Part shown: one piece after another, positions 490 through 21,971 of the stretch
Position numbering within the stretch: position 1 is the first letter of the stretch
How the letters are laid out: every line of letters begins with the position of its first letter
Source of the DNA: Saccostrea echinata
Lineage: Eukaryota
Assembly: GCF_033153115.1 (NCBI RefSeq)
Contig: NW_026889801.1
Span: 4,278,001 to 4,342,000, forward strand
Direction: 5' to 3'
Length of the DNA: 64,000 bases
Notes under the pieces: generated by a model
Told to the model about the DNA's origin: nothing
Database searches by the model: none
What the model saw: the letters and a program-made list of their open reading frames with translations, nothing else
Made by a program: the position numbers and the translations under genes

Positions 490-602
490 TCATAAATGTT
501 TATATTGTTTGACACAATAGAAGACGATGTAGGTATCATAAATATGGGAGCTTTATTTTTGTAGTAAATGGTGGCATTATAAATAAATAGCTTTAATCCT
601 TT

Positions 603-2076
603 TGTCACGATTTTGACATAGAGAATGATGTATATATAGCATTTGTGTTTAATTATTATAAATACAGTTATAGAAATTGTTTGATCAATTATAAAGTGAT
701 GTTATTGAGTAATGATGTCATATGATTTCTACATGTGATATAGAAGCTTAGTGTTCTTTGCATTTTTGCTATAACAAGTGCAAAACTGGTTGTATTTACA
801 TGGAATTTGTATGCATGTGTGTACATAGTTTTGATACTTTCTCTCATGATTTGTAGATCGCTGTACATATCTGTATAGTAATAAGCTGTATTTGTTGTAA
901 ATATCGTTTCAAAATCTGTAACTTTATTTATAGATACCGCCATCATGGTGTATACTTTGCATTATATTCCATCCCGATTTTAATTGTAATTCCTCTGCAC
1001 TGAGTATTTTATCGAAATTTGATGTTTATTGGAAATTGTTACATTGTATGAAATTCTTATATTCTTGTTTGTTATATTTATGTACATTATTTATTGTTAT
1101 TGTTAAACATATGTTGACTATGGTTATTGCCGGTGACTGCCGATGATACCGGAGATCTGCCGATCATCCCTAGGGAAGCGCGTGGATTTCCGGGGGGACT
1201 CTCAGGAGGTATATATAGGGGAGATAAGCAGTACCGGTGGACTCGGGGTTTAGCATCTAAGGTGATTCTCTGATTTTTCCAGTAGGAATTTAGAAACTTT
1301 TAAAGTAATTTATTTTTTTTTTAATTGGTGATTACGGGTTAATCTCGTATCACTAATAATTATAAGTAATTATCCTAGGACGTTTATATCGGGTTAATCT
1401 CGATATCTACGATTAAATAATTTTGCTACGGTTTGACTGAAAGTTATTCTTGAAGTCTTTCCGTGTAAATAATTGATTATCGTTGATAGTTCATCGAAAT
1501 TTAATCAATTTAAAGTGATAATTTATTTACGGTAGGAATATTCACGCAGGAATTAATACTAGGATTTAATACAGAGATTACAGAGCTAATTATTTTGCTT
1601 TAGATAATTTGGTAGATTGTATAGATTCGTAAATAAGAAATACTTTGGTGATTCTAAGGTATTTCTAGATTTTAATACTCACTAATCGGGTCATTTTCGT
1701 TTAGTGCCCCCCCCCCTTTATCGTATTAACGTAATACGAAGGTTGTGTTATTTATTATACTATCTCACTGTGTGTTTGGGTGATTCCCGACTACCAGTGA
1801 ATTAATTGTAATTGAATATTAATTAATATACTTAATATACATCTTGTTACTTTTATTTATTGAATAAATCTGTGTAAACTTTAATTAAGGCTTATCTTTA
1901 AATTCCTCCGTAATTTTAATTTACGAGTCCAAACACAGGTAATTCTTGTGTTAATCTAGGAGTTCTATATTTACGGGTTATTCTCGCAAATTATCAGAGT
2001 GCTTCATGGGTTATTCCCGTGTAGGCATTTAACAAGTACTTGTGCGTGAGGTGACAAGCAACTCAGGTCCGTTACA
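603..2076 (+). mobile_element. Solo LTR of an LTR retrotransposon (Gypsy-like), 1474 bp
   Basis: Termini TGTCACG...CGTTACA (7-bp inverted repeat, 1 mismatch). 4-bp TSD CTTT at 599-602 and 2077-2080. TATA-like TATATATAG at ~1210, AATAAA at ~1863, no ORF. Confidence 0.85.
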
Positions 2077-3376
2077 CTTTCAATTTTTGTATTCCCATTA
2101 ATCATTGGAAAATTAAGATTAATTTAAAATGCATTTTAAATCAGGAAAAAAAGTTTTACAAACTTAACAAGTCTTTTTTGTTATCGGGTTCGACCGATCA
2201 CAGTTGCTTCAGTACGAGGTACCCGGCAAGTTTAGTCATTTCCGAATACATGACGCAACGGACAACTTTTTTTTTATAAAGCACTGAAAGCTTCATGTAA
2301 TTTTATCGTGTTAAGTTAAGGAACTTTTTAATGCATTTACGTTTAGATGCATACATTTACACAGTGACATGGTGAATAAACCGTTTCCTCTTTGTGCGTA
2401 AGAATGTCCTTCACTTTTAAAACGGAAGTACACCATTTCTCTGTAAAGATTATTTGTTCATATGGGTTTCGAGATAGTCTTACTCATACATTAGTTTATT
2501 CGTTTAATAGGAAACTGGTTGCTCTTCATATTCTTTGCATTTTGCAGGCCACAATTTTGACATCTAAGCATAACATTTTCAGAAGATACTTGTTTTAATT
2601 TATACCTCTCTTGATGGCCATTTTAGATGCACCACCCATCTACATAATTTCATGATTAGATAATACCATAATTTATTATCACTGTATAAATGCCTAATAA
2701 ACCCTACTTCAATTGATGTCAAATTGTTAATCTACACAATAATATAAGCATATCATGTAGAACACGTGTGTGGAAATATCGTTAAATTATATAAAACATG
2801 AAATCATGGAGGAAATAAATTCAGGTTAAAAATTATTCTACAATATATTCAAAATTTGTAAACACCATTCACTTTTATAGAAATGTGTCAAAAAAGCGAG
2901 ATGAGACGAGAAAGCCATTAAAGAGTGGCAAATTTTTTCATCATTGTCGCAAGGACAATTGATAAAAAAATATGGTATAATTAATTTTAACAAAAATAAA
3001 GACGAATTAAATGCTTCCATCTTTTCGTTTTCTGTATTTGATTGAACAAGAGAAACTTGGTAATACAAGCAGAATGGCCAACATGTTTCAAGAATCGATT
3101 GTTCCTTTCAAAGAATTACTGAATCAAGGTTAAAAAACATGTCTTCAATTCCTTTTGCCCTTGATCTTTTCATTGATCTGAATGAGGACTGAATGCAAAT
3201 ACAATGTAAATAAAACGTCAAGGAAAACTAGTATATCATAAAAGCTTTTATAATAATTTTGTGTCCATTTGCACAAAAAAGTGATGAAAACAAAATGAAC
3301 AAGGTCTTCGTTTCGATTTTTCTGACATCACCTTTGTCTTAATAGGTTAAAAGAGAATATTAGAATTTTTCTCTAG

Positions 3377-3503
3377 AGTGTACGCCTCGTTTCACAGTAA
3401 AAGGATGTCAACAGAAGTGCAAAAATCCCAATTATGGTGTAAAATGTCAGTCAGAATGTAATTGCTTGGAAGAAAAATGTGATTACGGTACTTGGTTGTG
3501 AAG
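3377..3503 (+). pseudogene. EGF-like (MEGF10/SCARF/CED-1 type) pseudo-exon
   Basis: AG/GT-bounded exon reading ECTPRFTVKGCQQKCKNPNYGVKCQSECNCLEEKCDY. A +1 insertion near the end breaks the frame. Paralog of 58360-58485. Confidence 0.75.
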
Positions 3504-3511
3504 GTCAGGTA

Positions 3512-3733
3512 AAGGAAATGGGGTGTTGTAAATGAAGAACTATCAAATAAGAAAAATGGGGTGTCGTAAATGAAAGACTATCAAAGAAGGGAAATGGGGT
3601 GTTGTTAATGGAGGACTATCGAATAAGGGAAATGGGATGTTGTAAATGAAGGACTATAGAATAAGAAAAATGTGATATTGTAAATGAAGGACTATTGTAT
3701 AAGAAAAATAGGGTGTTGTAAATGAAGGACTAA
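3512..3733 (+). repeat. 37-bp minisatellite, ~6 copies
   Basis: Unit AAGRAAATGGGGTGTTGTAAATGAAGGACTATCRAAT repeated in tandem. Confidence 0.9.
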
Positions 3734-4474
3734 ATTTTTTTCCCGGATTGTAAAGCGTAAACTGACCTAAACCAGGTTATACTCGAAAAATTTGACCAAG
3801 AATTAGAGTCATTCCTAAAGTAAATCTAAAGTAAAATTATGTTATATAATTAAAAATAATTTGTGTTAAAATGTGTCCGTAGTACGACACGTGTTACTTT
3901 TCCCGTCAGGGAGGGCAAAACTTAATTTTTGATATTGGGGATATGCCAGGTTGCCGGCTGCCCCACTGTTATATTGACCACTGTTGATAATATCTGCCAA
4001 CTCAATTAAACCAATCAATAAACAATCAAGATATTTGTTTTGAAATATTGAATATATTTAGGACTTTGATAACAATTTTAAATATGAACGAAGAGATTTA
4101 TTTTTTAAAAAAGATATGACTACAGATATTATCAAAAGCATTGTTTGTCAATTACTAAACTTTGACTCGCTCTGCGATCCCATTTTCGCAGTTTAAAATG
4201 TTGGATGTTTAAAATATATATAGTGATATATTTAAACTTTTAGATTTAAACCTTTGAATTTATTGTTAAAACATGTCTACCAAATCTGGATATAATGTGA
4301 CGTTAAATAAAAATGTCATGACAGAAATCCTCTAACAGCCCTTATATACCGTATAGTTGGTTTTCATGTTACCTTGCTTATTTTACGTTTCAATTTCAGA
4401 AAGAAAAAAACGCATTTTTCTTCCATTTGCATAAGGGAAAAGTATTTTCTTTCTGGTTTGTCAAATTTATTATT

Positions 4475-4955
4475 AGTCCCCTACCGGTGAAACTGGAGGG
4501 GACTATAGGTTTCCTCTGAGTCTGTCCGTCTGTCTGTCTGTCTGTCTATCCGTCTGTCCCTCTGTCCCTCTGTCTGTCTGTCAGCCTGTCCCACTTGGTT
4601 TTCCGCACTTTTTTCCTAAACGCTTGCAGATATCGTGCTGATTTTTGGTATGTGAGTGTATCTTGGTGAGTTACAGATCAAGTTTGCATTTCGTTCCGCT
4701 TTAATGATTTTTGAAGGAATTACGGCCTTTTCAATTTTTAAGGGTTTTCCACAATTTTCTTCTAAATGCTTTCAGATATTGAGCTGATTTTTGGTGTGTG
4801 ACTTTACCTTGATTAGTTATAGATCAAGTTTGCATTTCGTCCCGCTTCATTGATTTTTGACGGAATTATGGCATTTTCAATTCTTAACGGGAACCAGATT
4901 ACACATGCCGGTAGGGGACTAGTATTGCTAATGCAATACTCTCAGAATGCTTGTT
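4475..4955 (+). mobile_element. Non-autonomous Helentron-associated element (HINE), present in copy 1 only
   Basis: Subterminal IR AGTCCCCTACCGG / CCGGTAGGGGACT, (TCTG/TCCG)n microsatellite, and 3' hairpin AGTATTGC-TAAT-GCAATACT. Inserted in TT; the empty site TTTATTATTGAAT is at ~21390. Confidence 0.88.
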
Positions 4956-5433
4956 GAATATATTAAACTCCAATCTTTTATCAGATGTTACAATTGAGAA
5001 CATTTGGTCCATTGCAAAGTTTCTCGGCATGATCTCTATCATTTTTTGATAGCCAGTAACACTTCTAATTTTGTGTTTGAAAATTTTTTTTATTATCTTA
5101 TTTTGTCTGATCTAGAAATTCAATGTTTATTGAAAGACATTTGGTGCTAAATTCTTTAATCTATAAAGGATTTAAATCCTCTAAACAGCAAGTTTTCATC
5201 ACTACCACAGGACAAAGCAATACTGTATCACTCATGAGTTTTGCATAGAGGAAAATTATAGAAACTAAATATCGTCTGTTTCGTTTCTAAGTTGAACTGG
5301 AATTTCAATCTAATGTTCATATGCAACATAAATTTCTTTAAAGAACAAACATTTGTCAGATTTGTAATGTCATAAGAGAGATTTATATTTTAATGCCTTA
5401 GAACTCTTTTATCTTTTCTCTTCTGCGGAAGTC

Positions 5434-5441
5434 TATATAAA
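5434..5441 (+). promoter_or_regulatory. TATA box of C1qDC copy 1
   Basis: TATATAAA ~100 bp upstream of ATG 5535, conserved at 21871. Confidence 0.55.
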
Positions 5442-5534
5442 TCGAATTCGAAATATGAAGTTACAGGAAAAATAGGACGGGTTCACCAAACTGCTCTTAA
5501 GATATTTTGTATGTAACTAAGTAAATCTTTCACA

Positions 5535-6940
5535 ATGCATATTCCAATTCCGTTTAGCATTACCACTTTATTGTTTTTGATTAATACTGGAGAAGGTTTC
5601 GCATTGCTAATGCATGGAAATTCTAACGAAACAATCCTTTCGTCTGGTTTGCATACTTCCGATCCAGCAGAAATCAAGCAAATGTTTCTGAACCTAACAG
5701 CAGAGTTGGAAAATCTCAAGAGACAAATAGATGTACTTGGTGATGAAAAAAAGTTGCTTCAAAACAGAGTATTCTTCTTGGAAGTGGAATTGAATAAACT
5801 AAATTCGTCTAAGACCCCTTCCAGTAATGAATTAATGGCGTATCTAAGAAGCACGAAGCACATAATTCAAACTTTGGCGGCAAATGAAGAATACGACAAA
5901 AATCTAACTCTCCGACTTAATGAAGCGGAGAATAATTTGGCGATATGTGTTAAGCAAAACAAAAACTTAACTCAGCAACTTAACGAAGTAGTGAATAACA
6001 TGGCTGCAAATGAAGTGTATGACAAAAACGTAAGTCAATGGCTCGGTGTTGCAATGGACAACTTAAATGACTTAAAGATTCAAATGCGATATACAAGCTT
6101 ATCACTACTAGACGTTCATTCTAAGACGGAAGAACTAAATACAACGGTAACCAGAAATTATGACGATCGAATAAAGGATCTCCATGGGCGAATAACAAGT
6201 ATGTATTCAGGCATTGCCGATTCTTAAATATTAAGTATCTAGTACATTTTATTACGATTTAATGTCAATGTCATAGATAGCTCCTCATGCATTTAAGGAT
6301 ATTTCTCAGTTTTGTGTGAGTTATTGGTATGTAAATCACACAGACTTGTCACGTAGGCATATTTCATGAAGCTCGCTAGCTCTTCATGAAAAATATGCCT
6401 ACGTGCAAGTCTCTGTGATTTACACACAACAATAATTTACACAANNNNNNNNNNNNNNNNNNNNNNNNNNNNNNNNNNNNNNNNNNNNNNNNNNNNNNNN
6501 NNNNNNNNNNNNNNNNNNNNNNNNNNNNNNNNNNNNNNNNNNNNNNNNNNNNNNNNNNNNNNNNNNNNNNNNNNNNNAAAATGCACTCAGTGTTTGAATT
6601 TTCCGATGCCCTATATCGTTATATTTTCACTAACGTCTCTGTAGCCCCATTGTGACGTACTTAAGTGTGAATTTATCCTTGCATATTTCTGCGCGTGAGT
6701 ATACATGCAAATGGCATTCAAATCAATTTTTAGTTGGTTAAGGACAAAAACACTGTAAATGTTAATATAAAAAAAAATGTGCTGTTTTTTTTTTTTTTTT
6801 TTCGAAATTGTTTGTTGTTGTTGAAGCTATTTCAATTTCAGCTCAATCAATTTAAACCATAGGCTTAAAGTGCTGATTTGATTTTTAATAACAATAACAT
6901 ATGTGAAGTACTTCAAGTAATATTTATTTCACGATTAGTT

Positions 6941-6986
<46 letters not shown>

Positions 6987-7437
6987 CATTTCAGTGATTT
7001 ACGCCATATAGAAAGTTGTTTCATAAACTCAAATAAACCTTGCAGATTTAACCAAAAAGGTAGCCTTTACGGTCGGCATGAGGTCAGCCAGCAGCTCCTG
7101 GAACAGCGGTACATTGGTGTTCGATAGGATTGTTTACAACATAGGTGGAGGGTACGACTCAGGCACTGGTGTCTTCACAGCTCCTGTCAATGGACACTTT
7201 GTTTTTTTCGTGAATGTACAAGCTTATAGTTCCAATGCAGTATACACACATCTAGTACTAAATGGCTCGAATAAAGTCACAACTATGGCAGAAAATGGTT
7301 CTTACATGCCAGGACCAAATTTGGCGGTATTAGGACTTCAAAAAGGAGATCGAGTATGGGTCAAATATTACGCCGGGACTGGTTATTACAGCGACAGTAC
7401 AGCTCCTGCTACCACGTTCTCTGGATTCCTTATTTAA
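5535..7437 (+). CDS. Secreted coiled-coil C1q-domain-containing protein (C1qDC), copy 1; exons 5535-6198 + 7046-7437, 351 aa
   Basis: Hydrophobic N-terminal signal (MHIPIPFSITTLLFLINTGEG) and a heptad coiled coil. Phase-1 donor ACAA|GTATGT joins in frame to acceptor TTGCAG|AT. gC1q motifs VAFT, LVFDRIVYNIGGGYD..TGVFTAPVNGHFVFFV, LQKGDRVWV, TTFSGFLI. AATAAA at 7596. Confidence 0.92.
6290..6770. mobile_element. Crypton-like non-autonomous palindromic element in the C1qDC intron (contains an N gap)
   Basis: Long palindrome TGTAAATCACACAGACTTGTCACGTAGGCATATTT..AAATATGCCTACGTGCAAGTCTCTGTGATTTACA. Ungapped relative at 34179-34577. Confidence 0.6.
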
Positions 7438-7956
7438 GCTAAATTTTATAATGGACATAAAAAAATGTTTGGTTAAAATCTATTTCAAAACTATAATAAT
7501 GATTAATAACTTTTCATGCAATTTAGTCTATTGTAGAACTCAATATATGATAGCTTTTGGTTCTCTTTGGATGGTGAAGTGAATGATGTTTTGTGAATAA
7601 ATGACTTGAAATGAAGGTAAAGAAGTACACAGACTAGATCTTGTTATATGAAATATTATATTCCTTTTTTAAAAGAAATACTAAAAGAATAGACAGTGGC
7701 AAACTATAATGCGATTGAGGATAGTTTGCCAAGAGCAACATTAGAGAGGTTAAGCGTTTGACCGCGTGCGTCTACGTGTACGTGTAAACCTAGAAGTGTT
7801 TTTACAAGTACGCGTAACTAACATCGTGTTCTGTTTAACAAACAGCACGTGTACGGGTACGTGTAAAACATTTTGTAATAAAATATTCCATTGGATAAAA
7901 AAAATCGAAATAAACAAATCAAAATAAGTTTTCCTTCTATGTGATTGTAAATTAAA

Positions 7957-8560
7957 ATGGCGCAAAATATGATGTTACTTGCATCTTTGGAGGATGATGA
8001 TGACCTTTTACTGTTGGCGAGTGTGGGCGATAAAAAAAATTCCTCAGTTTATCGGCAGTTAAAGTTTGATGAAATAAGCAATGAACAGTTCCTTAATTTG
8101 TTTACAATAAAAAAAGGGGAGATATGAATGGTTTGTGTGAAGCGTTAGATTTACCAAGAAAGATTGTGTGCCAAAACAGGACTGTATGTTCTGGAATAGA
8201 AGGTTTGTGTATTCTTATTCGCCGATTAGCGTACCCAAGTAGATTACAAGACCTTTCGCATATATTTGGGAGATCAACTGCTGAATTATCATACATTTTT
8301 AACACTGTCCTTAATTTCATTGATACAAGCCACGGACACAGACTAGAGAGTTTAAATCAGCCTTGGTTGTCGCACGCAAAGTTGGATGAAATGGCCACAG
8401 CCATAAGTAACTGCGAAGTCCCGCTGTTAAATTGCTGGGGTTTTATAGACGGAACGGTGAGGCCAATATGCAGACCCTAATCACATCAGCAGTTGGTGTT
8501 TGATGACCATAAGAGAGTCCATGGTCTTAAGTTTCAGTGTATTACGACACCTGATGATGG
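7957..8560 (+). pseudogene. Harbinger-type DDE transposase pseudogene (N-terminal part)
   Basis: Motifs LIRRLAYPSRLQDL..FGRS, CWGFIDGTVRPICRP and HKRVHGLKFQ. Frameshift at ~8115, stop at 8478, C-terminal part missing. Confidence 0.88.
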
Positions 8561-8569
8561 TAAAAATAT

Positions 8570-8775
8570 TTTCAAAAATACCCCGTACACCGCGATATAC
8601 ATAGAGAATAATATATACCCTTTAATTTCCGTATCACATCCTGTATCAGCTCGAGACGCAGCCAGTGGGCCGAAGGGCCGAGGGCTGACATTGGTCGAGG
8701 GCATGTTTTATTATGTTTATTACATACATGTAATAAAACACAGCACACATGAACTTGAGAAAAATACAAATAAAT
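8570..8775. mobile_element. Degraded Crypton-like fragment directly after the truncated transposase
   Basis: Core ATCAGCTCGAG..GGGCCGAAGGGCCGAGGGCTGA and short palindrome TTATTACATACATGTAATAA. Confidence 0.35.
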
Positions 8776-9256
8776 AATCATGTGTGCCCCCCCCCCAACT
8801 GAATAATTTTGCCGATATATAGAATACTATAAAAAAAACATGGCTAATATATGCTTGTGCCCCTTCAATTAAAAGGTCTGATGATTTTTTGCTTATCAAG
8901 GAATTTTTGGTAGTTGAAAGTGCCCCCCCCCCCCAAAAAAAAAATAAACTGAAAATGTATGGCTGTGTCCCCCGAACTAAAATTACTTCCTACGGGGTCA
9001 TGCACTGACAAATGACATGTAGCCTATTATATCAAAACAGTAATTTAAAATTAAGAGAATATGAACAATTTTTTTTTAAAAAATAGATGTATTATCGTAT
9101 GTACTGTTTTTTAAGGTTTAATCTACAAGGAGATATAAATCTGTATCAGCCCTGCAATTCTGCAATTATGACATCAGGTAAATCGCATAAGCAAGAACCC
9201 TGTTTTTATTACTAAGTATGTTGTAAATGTATGCAGTGTAATACATGTGCATACCT

Positions 9257-9823
9257 TTCTTTGGTGTCAGACACTCTAAGGCTCTCTTTCTTATTTCTTA
9301 CCCAATGTTCTCGGATTTTTCTTTCTTTTCTTTTTCTTCTTTCTTTCCCCTTTCTTCCTCTTCTTTCAACCCCAGTACTTCATCAAGTAAAGTGGTTTTT
9401 TCTGTTATTTCTTCACCAACACCAGATCTTAAAAATAGTACTTAATAATGAGTTTTCAAACTGTCTGAATTTATTATAAAATCAGATTTTTGGTCCACCC
9501 GCAATGTTGTGTAACTAAAAACATAAACAAAGAGAGGATTCAGCTAAAATATAATTATGTGTAGTATTTATTCAGAAAGAGAAATAGAGAGATGTGTACT
9601 TTTTGAGATTCTCTCGGTTTTCTCTCTTATGCTGTTCAATGAGTAGATGTGTCCGCTCTCTCACTCTCCTAGCATCTAGAAAAAAATCAGGTGATGACAG
9701 GGTTGCAGCGATTTCTGCCCATTTGCTCTTGTTTTTCAAGGGATTACTGGCGACAATTTCCCTCAAAAGCCCGATGTCATCCTCACTTTTAAACCGAATT
9801 TGTTTTTTCCTCTCGATATTCAT
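9257..9823 (-). pseudogene. Myb/SANT-like accessory ORF of the Harbinger-group element (spliced, frameshifted)
   Basis: IRFKSEDDIGLLREIVASNP..KWAEIAATL..ARRVRERTHLLIEQHKRE, spliced (AA|GTACAC..AAG|A) to SGVGEEITEKTTLLDEV and a charged tail. Confidence 0.75.
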
Positions 9824-11458
9824 TTCCCCCCTAATTTTAAAAGAAGATTGAAAGAAATACAAGTATTAAAATAAATATAGAAATTGTATTAGTGATTGAG
9901 GATTTGGGTTCTACAGAGGGGGTGGGGGCATATTGTGTAAATAAATATTCTGGACCATCACCCCCATCTTCCGGAAATAAAGTTTGGAATTTAAGCCGTC
10001 AACTCAACCGGTGCTAACCCAGAGTTTAATAGACCTTTTTGTACAGGGTTCTGTACCCTTTCAATGGGGAATTTTTAATCGAAAAAGTGGCAAACCTTGG
10101 AAATACTGATGTCTGAAATCAAGTTAAAATGTTGATTAAAGAATATCTTTTAAGGCTTATGCCTTAATCAATATTCAAATCTTCATTTCTATTTTCTAAT
10201 CATCAAAATCTCAAAATTCATGTCTTATTTAATTAAACAAAAAGCACTAATTAATGCAATGTGCATGTTATTTGGGAAATTTTAAAATTGGGAAAGGGCC
10301 CTTTTACAGGATCTGAATGCAAGGGTTATTAAACCCTACCCCCCCCCCAAAAAAAAAAAGAATGTTGGAGGGCAATTCCTTTTTTTTTCGCTTGTCAATT
10401 TCACATGGATTAAAATAAATAATATACTTCTGAGCATTTGGGAAAACATGAAAATAAATAAAAATAGATAATGTGTCTCACCCCCCCCCCCCCCGTCCCT
10501 TAAATATGCGTGAATCGACATAATTCAACAAGACGGGTACCAACAATAAAAAAACAATAATAATTAGTTCTTTGAGTAATGAATGTATAAACATATATCA
10601 TATTGATTCTTCAACACACGTTGGAATTTTTCTCAGGTCATTCGAAATGACGTCATTTCAACATGTCACTTTACAATCCATTTTTATCTAATATTTCTAT
10701 GACTTTGATCAAAAAAGGTACACAGATGTACGTAATAAATTCTCAACATCACAACAAACACCACATGAAAAAAAAAATCCATTATTTGAGTTTAAGAAGC
10801 TACAAGTTCTTACCTCCGTGTACTTGTGAATTCACGCGTTGTGCACAACTTGTAGAATTACGCGGTATGCAAAACTGATGACGTAAATCGCAGTAAATTA
10901 GGGGATTTCCCTAGCTACACGTACACGTAGACGTAGACGGTCATTTGCTTAACCACTCTATTGTCTCTGATTTATTGGTTACTATGTTTCTTAATTTTTT
11001 TTTATCAGTTTTCAATGTTTTTATTTTTTATAGTAGGCATTTTGGAAGAGCTGTCTCCTATTTTTTTACTGGTCAGAATACCAATTATAACAAGAGGCCC
11101 AAGGGCTTAACTTGAGTATAATACAACACTGTGAAGGATCCATAGAAGTCTTAATAAAATAAACTCTGACTTGTTTGCTAACAATTGTTTCGTTCGATTG
11201 TCATCATTTTTACTTTTGTTTTCATCGGTTAACACTGCTTTTATAAGATCCTCAACAATGAAGCGCTTATCTCTCTTTCCATGACGTTACTAACTCTGTT
11301 AAGGATCCATAGCTATCTTTTAAAAAATAGATTTTTGTGTGATGATGTTTTTCATTATTGAATTAATTAAACTAAAGAATGGTTTCTTTAAACTTGGTTA
11401 TCACAATTTTATTGGAAGTTTATGACTAAGTAACAATCATTGTTTATTAACATTATTG

Positions 11459-11700
11459 CAGGTGCAACGTTGAATATTGACCCGTGTTGAAAATTGACCC
11501 GGGGTTCATTTTTCAACGATGGATACTGAACCTGATGTGCTTTTTCTCCGTTAAAATTTAGACCAAAAGTCGTGGAATGGAATACATACCCGGTGTCATT
11601 TTTCAACATCTTTGTAATTTATTTTTTCGGCACTTATGACCTAAACGCGTTGAAAATTAACCCTATTGAATATTGACCCCCGACTACAGCGTTTTGTCCT
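11459..11700. mobile_element. MITE end with GTTGAAWWTTGACCC repeats
   Basis: Repeated and inverted motif CGTTGAAAATTGACCC. Duplicate at 27825; opposite-orientation end at 35674-35779. Confidence 0.55.
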
Positions 11701-12537
11701 CTGTTCGATCTGGAAGTTGTTATACATGATTTATATGTATGTGTAACTACTAATATATTTATTAATTTCATAATTTGAATTTCTTCTAACATAATAATTA
11801 GATCGGGCTGAAATCATCCCTAAAATACAGGTGTTGTTCAATACACCTCATATCTTTTTTCATTGTTGTCTTTGACATAAGTTATTAAAAGATGAACTAC
11901 GTATTGTACTAAAATGACCATCTAGAGGGCCCTTTTATCGCCCCCTCTCCTTCAGGTGTCTATTATGATATACAATTCATTATTAATTGCCGCCTAGGAT
12001 AAAAATGCATGAATTTATTTTTTTTTTTCAAATTTGGGACAGTCACAAGATGAAACACTTCCTTTAAACTTGGCTCAATGTTGGCTTATAGGTCCTTAAT
12101 GATGGCTTAATGGTTGCCTTTAAGTCACCATCAAGCACCATAAAACTAGCTTTAAGTATAACACCACCATTTAGTTACCATTAAGCTATTTCAAAGTCCT
12201 TAATGGGTACTTAAAGGTAGCTTAATTATGGCATAATGGTGGCTTATAGGTCCTTAATGGTATAGACAATCTTTAAGTCACCATTAAGCGAATTGCAAAC
12301 TTATAGGTGCTTAATGTACATACTCCATTAAGCTACCATTAAACCACCTTTAAGCCACCATTAAGTCACCATCACGCAGTCGATAAAACTGCTTTTATGG
12401 GTAAAATATTATTTTTATAAAGATTTATCATCACAAATTATAAATGTCGAGTTTACACTTTTGTTAATTTGGCAAAAATAATGTAAAAGAAAGAAAAGTT
12501 TAAAACAAAAAAAATCAAATATTAAATTTTAAAAAAC

Positions 12538-12609
12538 GGTTCCGTCAGGATTCGATCCCAGGATCTTTGGTTTATGGGGCGAACGCGTTAACCTTTAGGC
12601 TATAGGAGC
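12538..12609 (-). pseudogene. tRNA-like cassette (initiator-Met-like) inside the CACA element
   Basis: Minus strand TAGCCTAAAGG (A box)..CCCATAA..GGATCGAATCC (B box); stems imperfect. Confidence 0.55.
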
Positions 12610-14050
12610 TGCTGAGATATGATGGAAATATAAAACCTTTATTTTTAACAAAATTTGTGGACTCGAACGTGTATTTTTAATGTTTATATATATTATATTT
12701 ATATCTTTATAATCAATAATATAAGTAATATATTTATATATATATATATAAAAAACTTTTATATTACGTTCAAATGTCCTACCGTGAGTTCGGTGTAAAA
12801 TAACATTTTGATTTATGCTATGATTTCCTCGCTCTGTTATTGGAGTTTTTATTAGCATGACAAGATTGAAATTCAACAGATATAACCCAATTTGTTATTA
12901 AAAAGGAATATATCCTCAAAAGAGAACGATGGAAAAACATATTATAATTCTTTTTAAATACATGTATGCTGCGGATAATAATTGACAATCTTTGCGTAAC
13001 ACTTACGTTTATAAAATATTTTTTTCATCTTCAGTTTGAATTCTTTTTATTTCACAATGGGTATCAAAATTATTGTCTTTTCGTCTAGAATCATAATCTT
13101 TAATTTGTTAATGCTTGCGTTTAATTTTAAGTTTTGTAAAAATAATTCATCATTAAAATCTGTCATTGTACGTTGTGTATAGTAACATGTTAGCTGACCA
13201 GGGACTGGTGGGGACACCTAAATAAGGTATATTGTCTAATTAAGTCGATATATTGTACGCTGTATATTTTTCCCCGCTTCCCAATGTGTATGTCTGGTCG
13301 GTTGTCATGTTTAATCTGATCGACTGTTCTTCTGAAAATCGATTTTGAAATAACAATCATTGAAGATCGACTATATTTTGATAAATTCTTACTTCTGCAT
13401 TATTTTAAAAGGGAAAAAAAAATAATGGCATTTAACCATGGATTATTTCAAATTATTCATGATAGAATTCAATGATCGGCAATATAAACCATACCTATAT
13501 ATTTGTTTTCATATCTTAAACATTTCTCTACCCAAAGAAAAATTAAGAGACAGAGATAATATAACTTTTTTTTTACAAAAGAAAATGACTCTATATTACA
13601 ATATTTCCTATGAATTCGGCAGCGGAACGTGGCTCTCCAAACACGAAAGAAAAATACAACGTGATTTTTTATTTAAAAAAAATCAATATATATTATGTGC
13701 TCAAACTGAATTTTGGTAGCTAAAATTTTAAGGCATTTGCTGAATCTGTTTTCAGTGTCGAGTTTATACGCATTGACAAAAATGTTAGAAATAGCGAAAC
13801 AAAATTTTGAATTTAATTGAATAAGATTTTGCGTAAATGATATTGAGACAACTTAAACCTTAACAAGTTAGTGTATAGACTTAATAAAGGATGCATTCAG
13901 GTGGTTTAATTAAGTTTGGACATTAAGCCACCATTAAGCTGCAGCTTAAAGGTGGCTTTATGGTAGCTTAATGAAGTTTGGACATTAAGCACCTAGAAGC
14001 TGCAGCTTAATGGTGGCTTAAAGGAATTAAGTTCTATAAGCCATCATTAA

Positions 14051-18249: not shown

Positions 18250-20585
18250 GATTACCTACACATTTCAAGAACATCTAATTAGCGATCTGCTAGAAGAACT
18301 TGTATTTGATTTTTATTTTCGGATATTCAACTTATACTCAAAGGTTTACTCTATAAGGCTGAAATTCCTCGAAATCACGCTTCAATCTTTAAATAGTCTT
18401 TATGTTTCAGTAAAGGAAAAAGAATTGGATTATTCTATCTATACTGGATTCTTAAACTTCAGGAAAATCCTAAAAAAAAAAAAAAAGATACATACAGGTT
18501 GCAGCAAATGCTCTACCAATCCCCTGTTTTTAACTTCTCACTAAAATATTTACTCCTTAGAAGGAGAAAATTAAGACGCACTATGCTTCAATCTATTCAT
18601 AAAATTGTGTAAATTATATAGATGATGGATTTTAAAATCTCTTACAAACTTACATTTTAGAAACATTTAAAATCACTTTTTTCAAAGTCAATAACAACAA
18701 AATGCATGATTTTACAACACTTCATATTCCTCACGATGAATTAAAGATTAGGTGTTTTGATAACTTAGAACACCTTCTTCAAGAAAAATGGAACTTGGAA
18801 CTTTCCTGTCTCGTGACCAGTCATTAAACAATTAATTGTTTTAAAAAATCAGTCTGCTTCTACAAACAAGTACTCTGAGCTAGATATTAGAAATATGCCT
18901 CTTTCACAAGATCTATATAATCTTTGGAGACCAAGCCTTCCAACAGGCTGTTAGAATTTTGATAGGACATAATATCTTCTTTATTACCAGACATGTATGT
19001 TTTTATAATCCTAAGAAGCAAACTATTCGATTACTACTACATGACAACAAGAAAAATTATGTTGTGGGCTTTCACAGGGATATATTAACGACGTTTTATC
19101 AATATTTACAAGAATTACTTTCATTCATATGTTGACTCGATATATCCAAGTGAACTCGAAATAAATATATCTGTTTCAATATCCGTTTTATATTGGGTGT
19201 TTTACACAGACGATGATGCCCACTTAACGACGACGGGCCTAATTCATTTCTGCAATAGATTTTTATTCAAATTCTAATATGAGGTAAAGTGACTTTTATT
19301 GAGTTAACATCAATAAAAAAAAATCATATGGTCATCGATGTAGATTTTTTAAAGGAGAGCGTTTCAAAAGTTGGCGATGGAAATCGATAATTACTATAGG
19401 AAGTACTGTAAGTCAACTATTATTCGCGACATCTTGTGTTCGCGATTCTTCAGTAAAGAATCTATCCTGCGACTACTAATATTCGCAACCTAGGCAACAT
19501 TCTACAATAAATACGTAGGTAAAGAAAGTGATTCGCGACGAGAAATGTTTGCGAGTTAAAGAAGGTCGCGAAACTCGTGGATATTTCTCGCTCGCGAATA
19601 AAAGTTGGTTTACAGTAATCGAAAATTGCCAGTGTAGGGTAGAAGAGTGATCATTGAAAAAAAATCTGCAATAGAATTTTTATTCATATTAAAGGACAAT
19701 GCTAACAAGACAATTTACCAGCAAATTATACCAAAAAATAAATGGGTCATCGGCTTCGATTTTTTCAGGGGGCCTGTCAAACTCAGGTGTAGGGCACATT
19801 TTGAGGGAAATTTTCAATAAAAATACCTTGGCCAACTAAATCATTTATTTATAAAATTAACAAATGAATATAAATCGAAATATTTAAAATATTTTTAAAT
19901 GGAGAGGAATCGTTTGAATATCTTTAAAAGAATTAAAAAGGTATATATTTTTATCTTTTGCAATACATAATTAAGTCAATTTGATTCAAGGCATATGAGC
20001 AGTTTTCTGTGCAGTGGCGCGAAATTTCGAATTAGGTCCGTTGTCCTTAACGACTAATCTGCATGACAAACGAGATGACAACTTTTCCATGAAAATTGAA
20101 GACAACGAACTGTGATCATATTGAAGGGTAAATTAAACAATACAAATTGTGAGCAAACTTTTACAACATCAGAGGTGGGATCAGATGCCATGGAGGAGTA
20201 AGCTTTCCCTGTCATGAGGTCACACCCGACATGTGTCCTTTGTCATGAAGGTGTAAATGATGGAGAAATACGCAGTCAATTCAGTATGAAAAAATGGTCC
20301 GTAAATTTGAATGAAAGACGTTTATTTGGTTATATTATTGCTTACATTTTTTCATACCTATTGTTAGGCCATTGTTTAGTACTAAAATGCTCCGTCTACC
20401 TGATCAATACATAGAGCTCATGGTGGGTGTGACCGATCAACAGGGAATGCTTACTGCTCTTAGGCATCTGACTCAATCTCTGGAGTTTCAAGGGGTCCGT
20501 GTTTTGTGTCTTGTTCACAAATTTGTATTGTTTTTAAGAATTTTGAGGCCATTCACTGTTCGTTATTTCTACCTTTTTAATTTTG
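18250..20585 (+). mobile_element. Heavily degraded Penelope-like RT body with nested MITEs and an inverted 3' piece
   Basis: Remnants HDFTTLH..IPHDELK, QAFQQAV, RYINDVLSI..YVDSIYPSELEI and LHDKRDD. Minus-strand UTR piece at ~20095-20240 and plus-strand UTR piece at ~20340-20585. Confidence 0.7.
19406..19615. mobile_element. MITE with TA TSD (Tc1/mariner-like ends); duplicate at 32446-32655
   Basis: TA|CTGTAAGTCAACTATTATTCGCGA .. TCGCGAATAAAAGTTGGTTTACAG|TA. Confidence 0.8.
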
Positions 20586-21971
20586 GTTGAAAATATCGTG
20601 TACCGGTATATGTTGTAAAGAAAATTCACTCGGTGATTTAATCCGTGCCTCAACTTATAAACTATCGTGGAAAAGGCTACTTCTTTTTTCAATTATTTCA
20701 TTTCATAGAGAAAGATTGCCGAATTTCAGATCTATAGTATTTTAATTAGGCCATATGCCCTTGTCATTTCCGATTTCGTTTTATATGTTTTAGCAGTCGT
20801 CAACCCAGCGTGTTACTTTTCCCGTCAGGGAGGGCAAAACTTAATTTTTGATATTGGGGATATGCCAGGTTGCCGGCTGCCCCACTGTTATATTGACCAC
20901 TGTTGATAATATCTGCCAACTCAATTAAACCATTATAAACAATCAAGATATTTGTTTTGAAATATTGAATATATTTAGGTCTTTGATAACAATTTTAAAT
21001 ATGAACGAAGAGATTTATTTTTAAAAAAAAGATATGACTACAGATATTATCAAAAGCATTGTTTGTCAATTACTAAACTTTGACCCGCTCTGCGATCCCA
21101 TTTTCGCAGTTTAAAATTTTGGATGTTTAAAATATATATAGTGATATATTTAAACTTTTAGATTCAAACCTTTGAATTTATTGTTAAAACATGTCTACCA
21201 AATCTGGATATAATGTGACGTTAAATAAAAATGTTATGACAGAAATCCTCTAACAGCCCTTATATACCGTATAGTTGGTTTTCATGTTACCTTGCTTATT
21301 TTACGTTTCAATTTCAGAAAGAAAAAAACGCATTTTTCTTCCATTTGCATAAGGGAAAAGTATTTTCTTTCTGGTTTGTCAAATTTATTATTGAATATAT
21401 TAAACTCCAATCTTTTATCAGATGTTACAATTGAGAACATTTGGTCCATTGCAAAGTTTCTCGGCATGATCTCTATCATTTTTTGATAGCCAGTAACACT
21501 TCTAATTTTGTGTTTGAAAATTTTTTTTATTATCTTATTTTGTCTGATCTAGAAATTCAATGTTTATTGAAAGACATTTGGTGCTAAATTCTTTAATCTA
21601 TAAAGGATTTAAATCCTCTAAACAGCAAGTTTTCATCACTACCACAGGACAAAGCAATACTGTATCACTCATGAGTTTTGCATAGAGGAAAATTATAGAA
21701 ACTAAATATCGTCTGTTTCGTTTCTAAGTTGAACTGGAATTTCAATCTAATGTTCATATGCAACATAAATTTCTTTAAAGAACAAACATTTGTCAGATTT
21801 GTAATGTCATAAGAGAGATATATATTTTAATGCCTTAGAACTCTTTTATCTTTTCTCTTCTGGGGAAGTCTATATAAATCGAATTCGAAATATGAAGTTA
21901 CAGGAAAAATAGGACGGGTTCACCAAACTGCTCTTAAGATATTTTGTATGTAACTAAGTAAATCTTTCACA

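What the first reader, a model, noticed from the sequence alone, without database searches (positions are those of the whole stretch)
1255..2028. Array of at least 8 stem-loops with a shared pentaloop but different stems in the transcribed half of a solo LTR
Seen, all downstream of the TATA (~1210): TTGGTGATTACGGG[TTAAT]CTCGTATCACTAA (1325-1356), ATATCGGG[TTAAT]CTCGATAT (1386-1406), GACTGAAAG[TTATT]CTTGAAGTC (1435-1457), AGAAATACTTTGG[TGATT]CTAAGGTATTTCT (1636-1666), CACTAATCGGG[TCATT]TTCGTTTAGTG (1680-1706), TCACTG..TGGG[TGATT]CCCGA..CAGTGA (1765-1800), AACACAGG[TAATT]CTTGTGTT (1932-1952), ATTTACGGG[TTATT]CTCGCAAAT (1969-1991) and GTGCTTCATGGG[TTATT]CCCGTGTAGGCAT (1999-2028). Every loop is TNAWT, closed by G-C (G-T in one case). 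The outer stems are unrelated in sequence yet each pairs with itself. The frequent G-T pairs work only on the plus strand, the same strand as the TATA and AATAAA. Inference: a multivalent RNA structural signal in R/U5, such as Gag/packaging, export or translational-control sites in the style of an MS2/PP7 array. I know of no description of such an array for a mollusc LTR family.
Basis: partly seen in the sequence, partly recalled or inferred. Interest (0 to 1): 0.75.

Follow-up and report, generated by a model that had tools for sequence, protein, structure and literature searches.

The report
Nine same-capped hairpins in oyster LTR
The end-repeat of a jumping gene in an oyster genome has nine short stretches predicted to fold into RNA hairpins with the same tip, inside an 840-base region almost free of start codons; they likely serve as repeated landing sites for one protein, possibly the element's own capsid protein, switching its RNA from being translated to being packaged.

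Summary
Window 603-2076 is a 1474-bp TG..CA element with a 4-bp duplication; other copies, about 95% alike, end at the same two bases with different flanks, so a solo LTR is the best reading. Nine G-UNAWU-Y hairpins lie on the + strand downstream of the TATA box. A loop-blind caller finds 8 sharing one loop, against at most 2 in 500 shuffles and 131 background tiles, and none in U3. G.U outnumbers A.C 11 to 1. New here: this strand has 1 ATG against 12 expected, the most depleted of 64 triplets, as in a scanned 5' leader. The shared unit is a cap of about 13 nt with a G.U at the second pair, not the loop alone. Best mechanism (0.45): the element's Gag loads on the array, stalls scanning and commits the RNA to packaging. 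Export or host-protein binding are rivals. No internal region, ligand, transcript or family-wide covariation could be examined. It works like the repeated structural motifs of RNA viruses; nine paper searches showed no such array in an animal LTR.

The parts
603..2076 (+). Solo LTR, 1474 bp, TGTCAC...GTTACA termini
   Evidence: Termini; contig of run X1 aligns from exactly 603 to 2076 with other flanks on both sides, run X3 gives a third left flank at 603; single copy in the window
599..602 (.). Left target-site duplication CTTT
2077..2080 (.). Right target-site duplication CTTT
603..1239 (+). Inferred U3: T-rich, 18 ATG, no motif hairpins
1128..1203 (+). Promoter-proximal block: four T(G/A)CCG repeats at 9-11 bp spacing and a kappaB-like site at 1194 (label recalled)
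1210..1217 (+). TATATATA box with G-rich flanks; start of transcription inferred near 1240
   Evidence: start site inferred from spacing only
1146..2005 (+). 860-nt stretch without ATG
1325..1356 (+). Hairpin 1, loop UUAAU
1386..1406 (+). Hairpin 2, loop UUAAU
1435..1457 (+). Hairpin 3, loop UUAUU, tandem G.A in the stem, extendable outward
1636..1666 (+). Hairpin 4, loop UGAUU
1680..1706 (+). Hairpin 5, loop UCAUU, G.U closing pair
   Evidence: missed
1765..1800 (+). Hairpin 6, loop UGAUU
1863..1868 (+). Only AATAAA on the + strand of the LTR; R/U5 border inferred near 1885-1895
   Evidence: border inferred
1932..1952 (+). Hairpin 7, loop UAAUU (inferred U5)
1969..1991 (+). Hairpin 8, loop UUAUU, one A.C mismatch (inferred U5)
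   Evidence: missed
1999..2028 (+). Hairpin 9, loop UUAUU (inferred U5)
2006..2032 (+). Only ATG of the inferred leader, inside the 5' arm of hairpin 9, opening an 8-codon frame

Best explanation
Nine stretches in the downstream half of this oyster solo LTR are predicted to fold into RNA hairpins with a shared cap, and they likely act as repeated binding sites for the element's own Gag protein, which would stall ribosome scanning along the leader and commit the RNA to packaging. Shown: the hairpin-forming sequences, their shared cap (G-C closing pair in 8 of 9, G.U second pair in 6 of 9, loop UNAWU in 9 of 9), their strand bias, the lack of ATG on that strand, and the mobile unit's boundaries. 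Inferred: that the full element is a Gypsy-type retrotransposon transcribed from about 1240; that its leader is read by cap-dependent scanning to a gag start beyond U5; that each hairpin (-3 to -16 kcal/mol) is weak enough for a scanning ribosome to open while unbound; that one protein reads the cap; that this protein is Gag; that six sites also recur at the RNA's 3' end because they lie in R. In this solo copy the array is probably a passenger.
For: Same-loop group of 8 against at most 2 in 500 shuffles and 131 tiles. Across the nine hairpins 88.9% of 72 cells pair, with 18 two-sided changes, 0 of 500 shuffles as high, and every slid register lower (partly circular, since hairpins were chosen because they fold). 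Own arms pair best in 6 of 9, mean -10.7 against -4.0 kcal/mol for swapped arms. G.T 11 against A.C 1 in strand-neutral stems, p 0.006. Summed energy RNA + -87.9, RNA - -46.4, DNA + -35.3, DNA - -28.6. ATG 1 against 11.9 expected, 0 of 2000 shuffles as low, lowest of 64 triplets, all 131 background tiles have 7 or more, U3 has 18. In other copies 0 of 8 displayed substitutions in 1240-1413 fall in hairpins, P 0.055, and none of the 7 displayed indel rows in 1240-2076 lies inside one. Precedent: Ty1 packaging determinants lie in the first 380-580 nt and Gag multimerisation may switch the RNA from translation to packaging (PMC4974528); repeated same-loop motifs are described as the hallmark of RNA-virus packaging signals (PMC8206606).
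Against: No ligand, gag gene, internal region or transcript was seen. Six of nine hairpins lie in the inferred R, so they would also be on short or read-through transcripts, which is poor for selecting full-length genomes; the R region of Ty1 is dispensable for retrosome localisation. The loops carry no fixed G, whereas zinc-knuckle nucleocapsids usually read exposed G (recalled). 6 of 15 loop-motif matches in the region do not fold. The conservation test across copies is weak: P 0.055, 33 of 73 substitution rows and 7 of 19 indel rows were not displayed, and indels favour the homopolymer runs between hairpins anyway. ATG depletion shows a translated leader, not that the hairpins act on translation.
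Confidence: 0.45

Rival explanations
1. Export or localisation element: the array binds an element-encoded Rev/Rec-like protein or a host export or transport factor, and works from the 3' copy of R as well as the 5' copy.
For: Six hairpins lie in the inferred R. LTR-resident export elements exist: the 433-nt RcRE in HML-2 U3 and an LTR-derived constitutive transport element (PMC11379458 passages). All structural evidence fits equally.
Against: Three hairpins lie after the only AATAAA and so would occur only at the 5' end. The export elements read about are single large folds, not separate same-loop hairpins. No accessory gene can be seen.
Confidence: 0.2
2. Host translation or stability switch: a host RNA-binding protein reads the cap, as with iron-responsive element arrays (recalled), and limits Gag synthesis to a tissue or stage such as the germ line.
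For: The array sits in an ATG-free, apparently scanned leader, and the only ATG is inside hairpin 9.
Against: No Rfam family reaches its threshold (2 weak hits, E 0.37 and 3.2). The motif forms only 8 hairpins in the other 123.8 kb of both strands. I recall no host protein with this specificity.
Confidence: 0.12
3. Control of transcription or 3' end formation: the hairpins act like TAR, or suppress the AATAAA at 1863 in the 5' LTR, which lies about 620 nt after the inferred start.
For: A long R leaves the 5' LTR poly(A) signal exposed; hairpin 7 holds a GU-rich tract downstream of it.
Against: No predicted stable pairing covers AATAAA in the centroid structure; nine copies spread over 700 nt are not needed for one signal.
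Confidence: 0.08
4. No selected RNA role: relics of old internal duplication of one palindromic unit, or repeated DNA binding sites, with hairpins as a by-product.
For: The inner 4+4 bases are 65% alike between hairpins; conservation across copies is not significant (P 0.055). Palindrome-rich LTR regions in maize Sireviruses are fast-evolving cis-regulatory DNA (PMC4728375 abstract).
Against: Outer stems are at background identity yet pair in cis; spacings are irregular, 33-205 nt, and Tandem Repeats Finder sees no array; G.T against A.C asymmetry is not expected from neutral decay of DNA palindromes; DNA folding is weak and nearly strand-neutral.
Confidence: 0.1

Closest known systems
Repetitive structural motifs (RSMs) of coronavirus RNAs, e.g. 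2-4 gUUYCGUc hairpins in 5' UTR SL5 (PMC8206606; abstract and section 4.3 read)
   Same: Several hairpins with one conserved loop and closing pair in a 5' leader, near a uORF and ahead of the main start; proposed multivalent capsid-protein sites, also linked to translation.
   Different: Nine separate hairpins over 700 nt rather than 2-4 arms of one junction; other loop; host is an LTR retroelement; function untested in both for the 5' UTR case.
5' packaging region of Ty1/Ty3 (PMC4974528; abstract and sections 3, 5, 7 read)
   Same: Structured 5' end of an LTR-retrotransposon RNA; one RNA pool serves translation and packaging, with Gag proposed to switch between them.
   Different: Ty1 signals are a pseudoknot and palindromes mostly inside GAG, with no same-loop array in the sections read; Ty1 R is dispensable for retrosome localisation, here R is inferred to be about 650 nt.
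LTR-resident export elements: HERV-K RcRE and the MER11-derived transport element (PMC11379458; passages read)
   Same: Structured, protein-binding RNA element encoded inside an LTR.
   Different: RcRE is in U3 and acts from the 3' end; single fold bound by an accessory protein; no evidence for such a protein here.
Palindrome region of maize Sirevirus LTRs (PMC4728375; abstract read)
   Same: Multiple hairpin-forming units inside an LTR.
   Different: There in the cis-regulatory part, a hotspot of sequence change and siRNAs; here downstream of the TATA box, strand-biased, with a fixed loop and stems of 7-14 pairs, too short for microRNA-like processing (recalled limit).
Cellular same-loop arrays: transferrin-receptor IREs, MAT2A hairpins, CsrB; MS2 operator (all recalled, no call)
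   Same: Same loop on different stems, read by one protein; MS2 couples translation shut-off to packaging.
   Different: No sequence match (Rfam).

Membership tests
Solo LTR of an LTR retrotransposon | TG...CA termini with short inverted repeats | tested here: met
   TGTCACG against the reverse complement of the 3' end TGTAACG, 6 of 7; compare general pattern in PMC3601003 passages
Solo LTR of an LTR retrotransposon | 4-6 bp target-site duplication | tested here: met
   CTTT on both sides. The two flanks on the X1 contig do not match each other: chimeric contig or recombinant copy, unresolved
Solo LTR of an LTR retrotransposon | Other insertions with the same boundaries | tested here: met
   2 of 4 runs show other flanks at 603, 1 of 4 at 2076; the other runs do not reach the ends
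Solo LTR of an LTR retrotransposon | TATA box then AATAAA on one strand | tested here: met
   1210 and 1863; motif matches only
Solo LTR of an LTR retrotransposon | Copy joined to PBS, PPT and an internal region | tested here: inconclusive
   None of the 3 loose ends at the termini reads as PBS or PPT in the needed place; no genome is held
Ty3/Gypsy (Metaviridae) and its mollusc clades | pol order PR-RT-RH-IN and RT phylogeny | not testable with these tools
   No internal region; Gypsy is suggested only by the 4-bp duplication (recalled rule) and T-rich U3 as in Sushi and rGmr1 LTRs
Helenus/Ajax TRIMs of bivalves | Element under about 1.3 kb with two short LTRs holding a tRNA- or 5S-like sequence | tested here: not met
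   No terminal direct repeat, no tRNA, no Rfam hit; Helenus LTRs are at most 323 bp
Retrozymes / hammerhead-bearing retroelements | Hammerhead ribozyme in the repeat | tested here: not met
   No hammerhead match to E 5
Repeated-motif packaging signals of RNA viruses | Several hairpins with a conserved loop on the packaged strand | tested here: met
Repeated-motif packaging signals of RNA viruses | Confined to the genome-length RNA | tested here: inconclusive
   6 of 9 in the inferred R, 3 of 9 in the inferred U5; borders not mapped
Repeated-motif packaging signals of RNA viruses | Specific binding of capsid protein, needed for packaging | not testable with these tools
   No cognate protein, no assay

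The most novel reading that the evidence does not exclude
Animal LTR retrotransposons use an operator array: a long, ATG-purged leader studded with same-capped hairpins that counts Gag molecules, shuts off its own translation once enough are bound and nucleates the capsid, as MS2 does with one operator. Because six sites lie before the poly(A) signal, solo LTRs like this one could emit a 650-nt non-coding RNA that soaks up Gag, so the host's solo LTRs would restrain the family. Similar same-loop arrays noted by this scan in unrelated retrotransposons would make it a general, overlooked design.
Probability: 0.2. Interest if true: 0.8.

Novelty: new variant of a known kind. Interest (0 to 1): 0.58.

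Why it matters
How LTR retrotransposons pick out their own RNA and switch it from translation to packaging is unresolved even for Ty1 and Ty3 (PMC4974528, section 7). A nine-fold repeated, sharply defined 13-nt cap gives a discrete site to test, with built-in controls (U3, the - strand, six non-folding motif matches).

Tried and rejected
Own genome: none held, so no copy census and no internal region. Pattern scans for relatives: viral contigs, 13 loci for a two-hairpin degenerate pattern, none with a blastn match to the LTR; 149 loci for a loose three-hairpin pattern from a scan that stopped at 14 of 64 parts, no blastn match below E 0.15, the top motif counts having spacings in multiples of three as in coding repeats; 0 for two exact patterns; prokaryote genomes 0; metagenomes 1 locus, a 9-nt microsatellite; phages no match. 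Rfam: 2 chance-level hits. Sequencing runs: no RNA holder listed; X4, guessed to be RNA, matches 1509-1709 without a difference, which shows neither strand nor expression. Minus-strand orientation (array in U3) rejected on ATG depletion, G.U bias and folding energy. Internal ribosome entry thought less likely because such leaders usually tolerate upstream AUGs (recalled). A-to-I editing as the source of the G.U pairs considered: it would also imply folding of the + RNA, but does not explain a G.U at the same second pair in 6 of 9, and copy differences show no A>G excess. MicroRNA precursors, tRNA-derived TRIM and retrozyme rejected. The errantivirus table of PMC13524379 lists no Saccostrea element. 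Earlier notes on this genome or sequence: none.

Full report
Setting. The window is about 33% G+C and holds C1q-domain genes. The closest named relatives of the 236-aa frame at 5517 are Saccostrea proteins (59-68% identity), then Magallana and Crassostrea, so the host is an oyster. No whole genome is held.

The element. Bases 603-2076 begin TGTCAC and end GTTACA, with CTTT on both sides, and occur once in the window. Contigs of four public runs were laid on 520-2200. One contig of run X1 aligns from exactly 603 to exactly 2076 and goes on into other sequence on both sides; run X3 shows a third left flank at 603; X2 and X4 do not reach the ends. The X1 copy has 19 differences in 603-861 and 52 in 867-2076, a 90-letter segment in place of 862-866 and 17 extra letters after 1262. 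So 603-2076 is a mobile unit with several insertions. None of the three terminal loose ends reads as a primer site or polypurine tract where one is needed, and X1's two flanks are not a duplication, so the link to an internal region is not shown. A TATATATA box at 1210 and the only + strand AATAAA at 1863 fit the general LTR plan in PMC3601003 (passages). Gypsy is my guess from the 4-bp duplication (recalled rule). It is not a Helenus TRIM or a retrozyme.

The hairpins. Of 15 G-TNAWT-Y matches on the + strand of 1240-2076, 9 close a loop with probability 0.67-1.0 and 6 do not. A strict caller scores 8 of 9, none on the - strand or in U3, a mean of 0.047 in 300 shuffles and 8 in the other 123.8 kb. 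Because the motif was chosen after seeing it, I also called hairpins without regard to loop and asked for the largest same-loop group: 8 of 11 here, at most 2 in 500 shuffles and 131 background tiles, 1 in U3, 3 on the - strand. Folding z-scores are -5.8 (+), -3.2 (-) and -1.7 (U3) on 20 shuffles each.

What is shared. The loop is U-N-A-W-U in 9 of 9; the closing pair G-C in 8; the second pair G.U in 6; the third G-C in 6; the fourth C-G or U.G in 7. The inner 4+4 bases are 65% alike between hairpins, the next 10+10 are 28% alike, which is background. So the repeated unit is a cap of about 13 nt on interchangeable stems. Across the nine, 88.9% of 72 cells pair with 18 two-sided changes, above all 500 shuffles and all slid registers, though two weaker measures were reached by about 50 of 500 shuffles and the test is partly circular. 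Own arms pair best in 6 of 9. Spacing is irregular, 33-205 nt, with no tandem array.

RNA, + strand. In stems defined without favouring either strand, G.T outnumbers A.C 11 to 1 (p 0.006). Summed energies are -87.9 (RNA +), -46.4 (RNA -), -35.3 (DNA +) and -28.6 (DNA -); hairpin 8 is the exception. Independent of folding, the + strand of 1240-2076 has 1 ATG against 11.9 expected; 0 of 2000 dinucleotide shuffles were as low, it is the most depleted of 64 triplets, all 131 background tiles have 7 or more, and U3 has 18. The - strand has 6 against 10.2 (P 0.05). This is what a long leader read by scanning ribosomes should look like, and it supports the orientation. The one ATG, at 2006, sits in the 5' arm of hairpin 9 and opens an 8-codon frame.

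Across copies. The tool displayed 40 of 73 substitution rows, up to 1413, and 12 of 19 indel rows. None of the 8 displayed substitutions in 1240-1413 falls in hairpins 1 or 2, which cover 30% of that stretch (P 0.055), and none of the 7 displayed indel rows in 1240-2076 lies inside a hairpin. This is suggestive only. No compensatory change between copies could be seen or excluded. Scans of viral, metagenome, prokaryote and phage collections gave no relative.

Mechanism. A fixed loop on stems that differ but keep pairing points to one protein reading the cap many times (inferred; I put a selected RNA role at about 0.85). Each hairpin is weak enough to be scanned through while free (-3 to -16 kcal/mol; threshold recalled). 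Sites strung along a scanned leader are a natural switch: occupied, they block the ribosome. In Ty1 and Ty3 one RNA pool serves both translation and packaging, packaging signals map to the 5' end, Gag multimerisation may cause the shift, and the Gag sites are not precisely defined (PMC4974528, sections 3, 5, 7). Repeated same-loop motifs are called the hallmark of packaging signals in RNA viruses, and those in coronavirus 5' UTRs are also tied to translation (PMC8206606, abstract and section 4.3). I therefore favour Gag loading and a translation-to-packaging switch (0.45). Against it: six sites are in the inferred R and would not mark full-length genomes, Ty1 R is dispensable for retrosome localisation, the loops lack a fixed G, and no gag gene is in hand. 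Rivals are an export or transport element (0.2; LTR-resident precedents in PMC11379458 passages), a host translation switch (0.12), no selected RNA role (0.1) and control of transcription or 3' end formation (0.08).

Novelty. Nine full-text searches showed no report of a same-loop hairpin array in an animal LTR; the library lacks most subscription journals and Repbase, and bioRxiv supplements are closed. The mollusc LTR survey PMC6238403 (passages) gave nothing on LTR structure and-500 bp usual, so this LTR is long. The errantivirus table of PMC13524379 (passages and supplement search) has no Saccostrea element. PMC10886601 was read in parts 1-2 of 6 and passages, PMC4728375 in abstract. Earlier AI notes of this scan describe same-loop arrays with other loops in several unrelated retrotransposons (8 of 10 shown); I did not check them, and they are a lead to generality, not support. 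Verdict: a real, strongly non-random RNA-level feature; a new variant of a known kind of signal, with ligand and function untested.

Noticed in passing
window 1146-2005: 860 nt without ATG on the + strand in an AT-rich region; GTG is the most enriched triplet in 1240-2076 (18 against 7 expected).
   Followed up: yes
window 1128-1203: Four T(G/A)CCG repeats at 9-11 bp spacing and kappaB-like sites just upstream of the TATA box; could tie the LTR to immune or stress signalling (labels recalled).
   Followed up: partly
window 1907-1928 and 1717-1740: Two further hairpins with other loops; the first has a 7-nt UUUUAAU loop, like a cytoplasmic polyadenylation element (recalled), about 45 nt after AATAAA.
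   Followed up: no
window 861-867 and 1262: Copies in runs X1-X3 carry a 90-letter segment in U3, and X1 and X3 17 more letters near the inferred start, that this copy lacks.
   Followed up: partly
flank behind 2076 on the X1 contig: A purine-rich run followed by TG lies just behind the LTR end, like a polypurine tract on the wrong side; this contig's flanks form no target duplication. Unexplained.
   Followed up: no
window about 140-260: tRNA-like A and B box pattern, probably a SINE head (by eye; ARAGORN finds no tRNA).
   Followed up: no
window about 4100-14000 and 20500-30400: Near-identical duplication at about 16.4 kb spacing holding a coiled-coil plus C1q gene and a transposase-like fragment (8097-8480; no Pfam hit, label recalled).
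   Followed up: partly
window about 52000-62000: Several decayed copies of a repeat with RT-like frames resembling DIRS/Ngaro elements (recalled; no Pfam hit for two frames tested).
   Followed up: no
window 3370-3732: Cysteine-rich EGF-like exon remnant (by eye) followed by a 38-bp minisatellite.
   Followed up: no
L003, L005, L012 near 3001-3046: Three viral contigs share a pair of identical hairpins with a UCAAU loop; no other likeness to the LTR.
   Followed up: no
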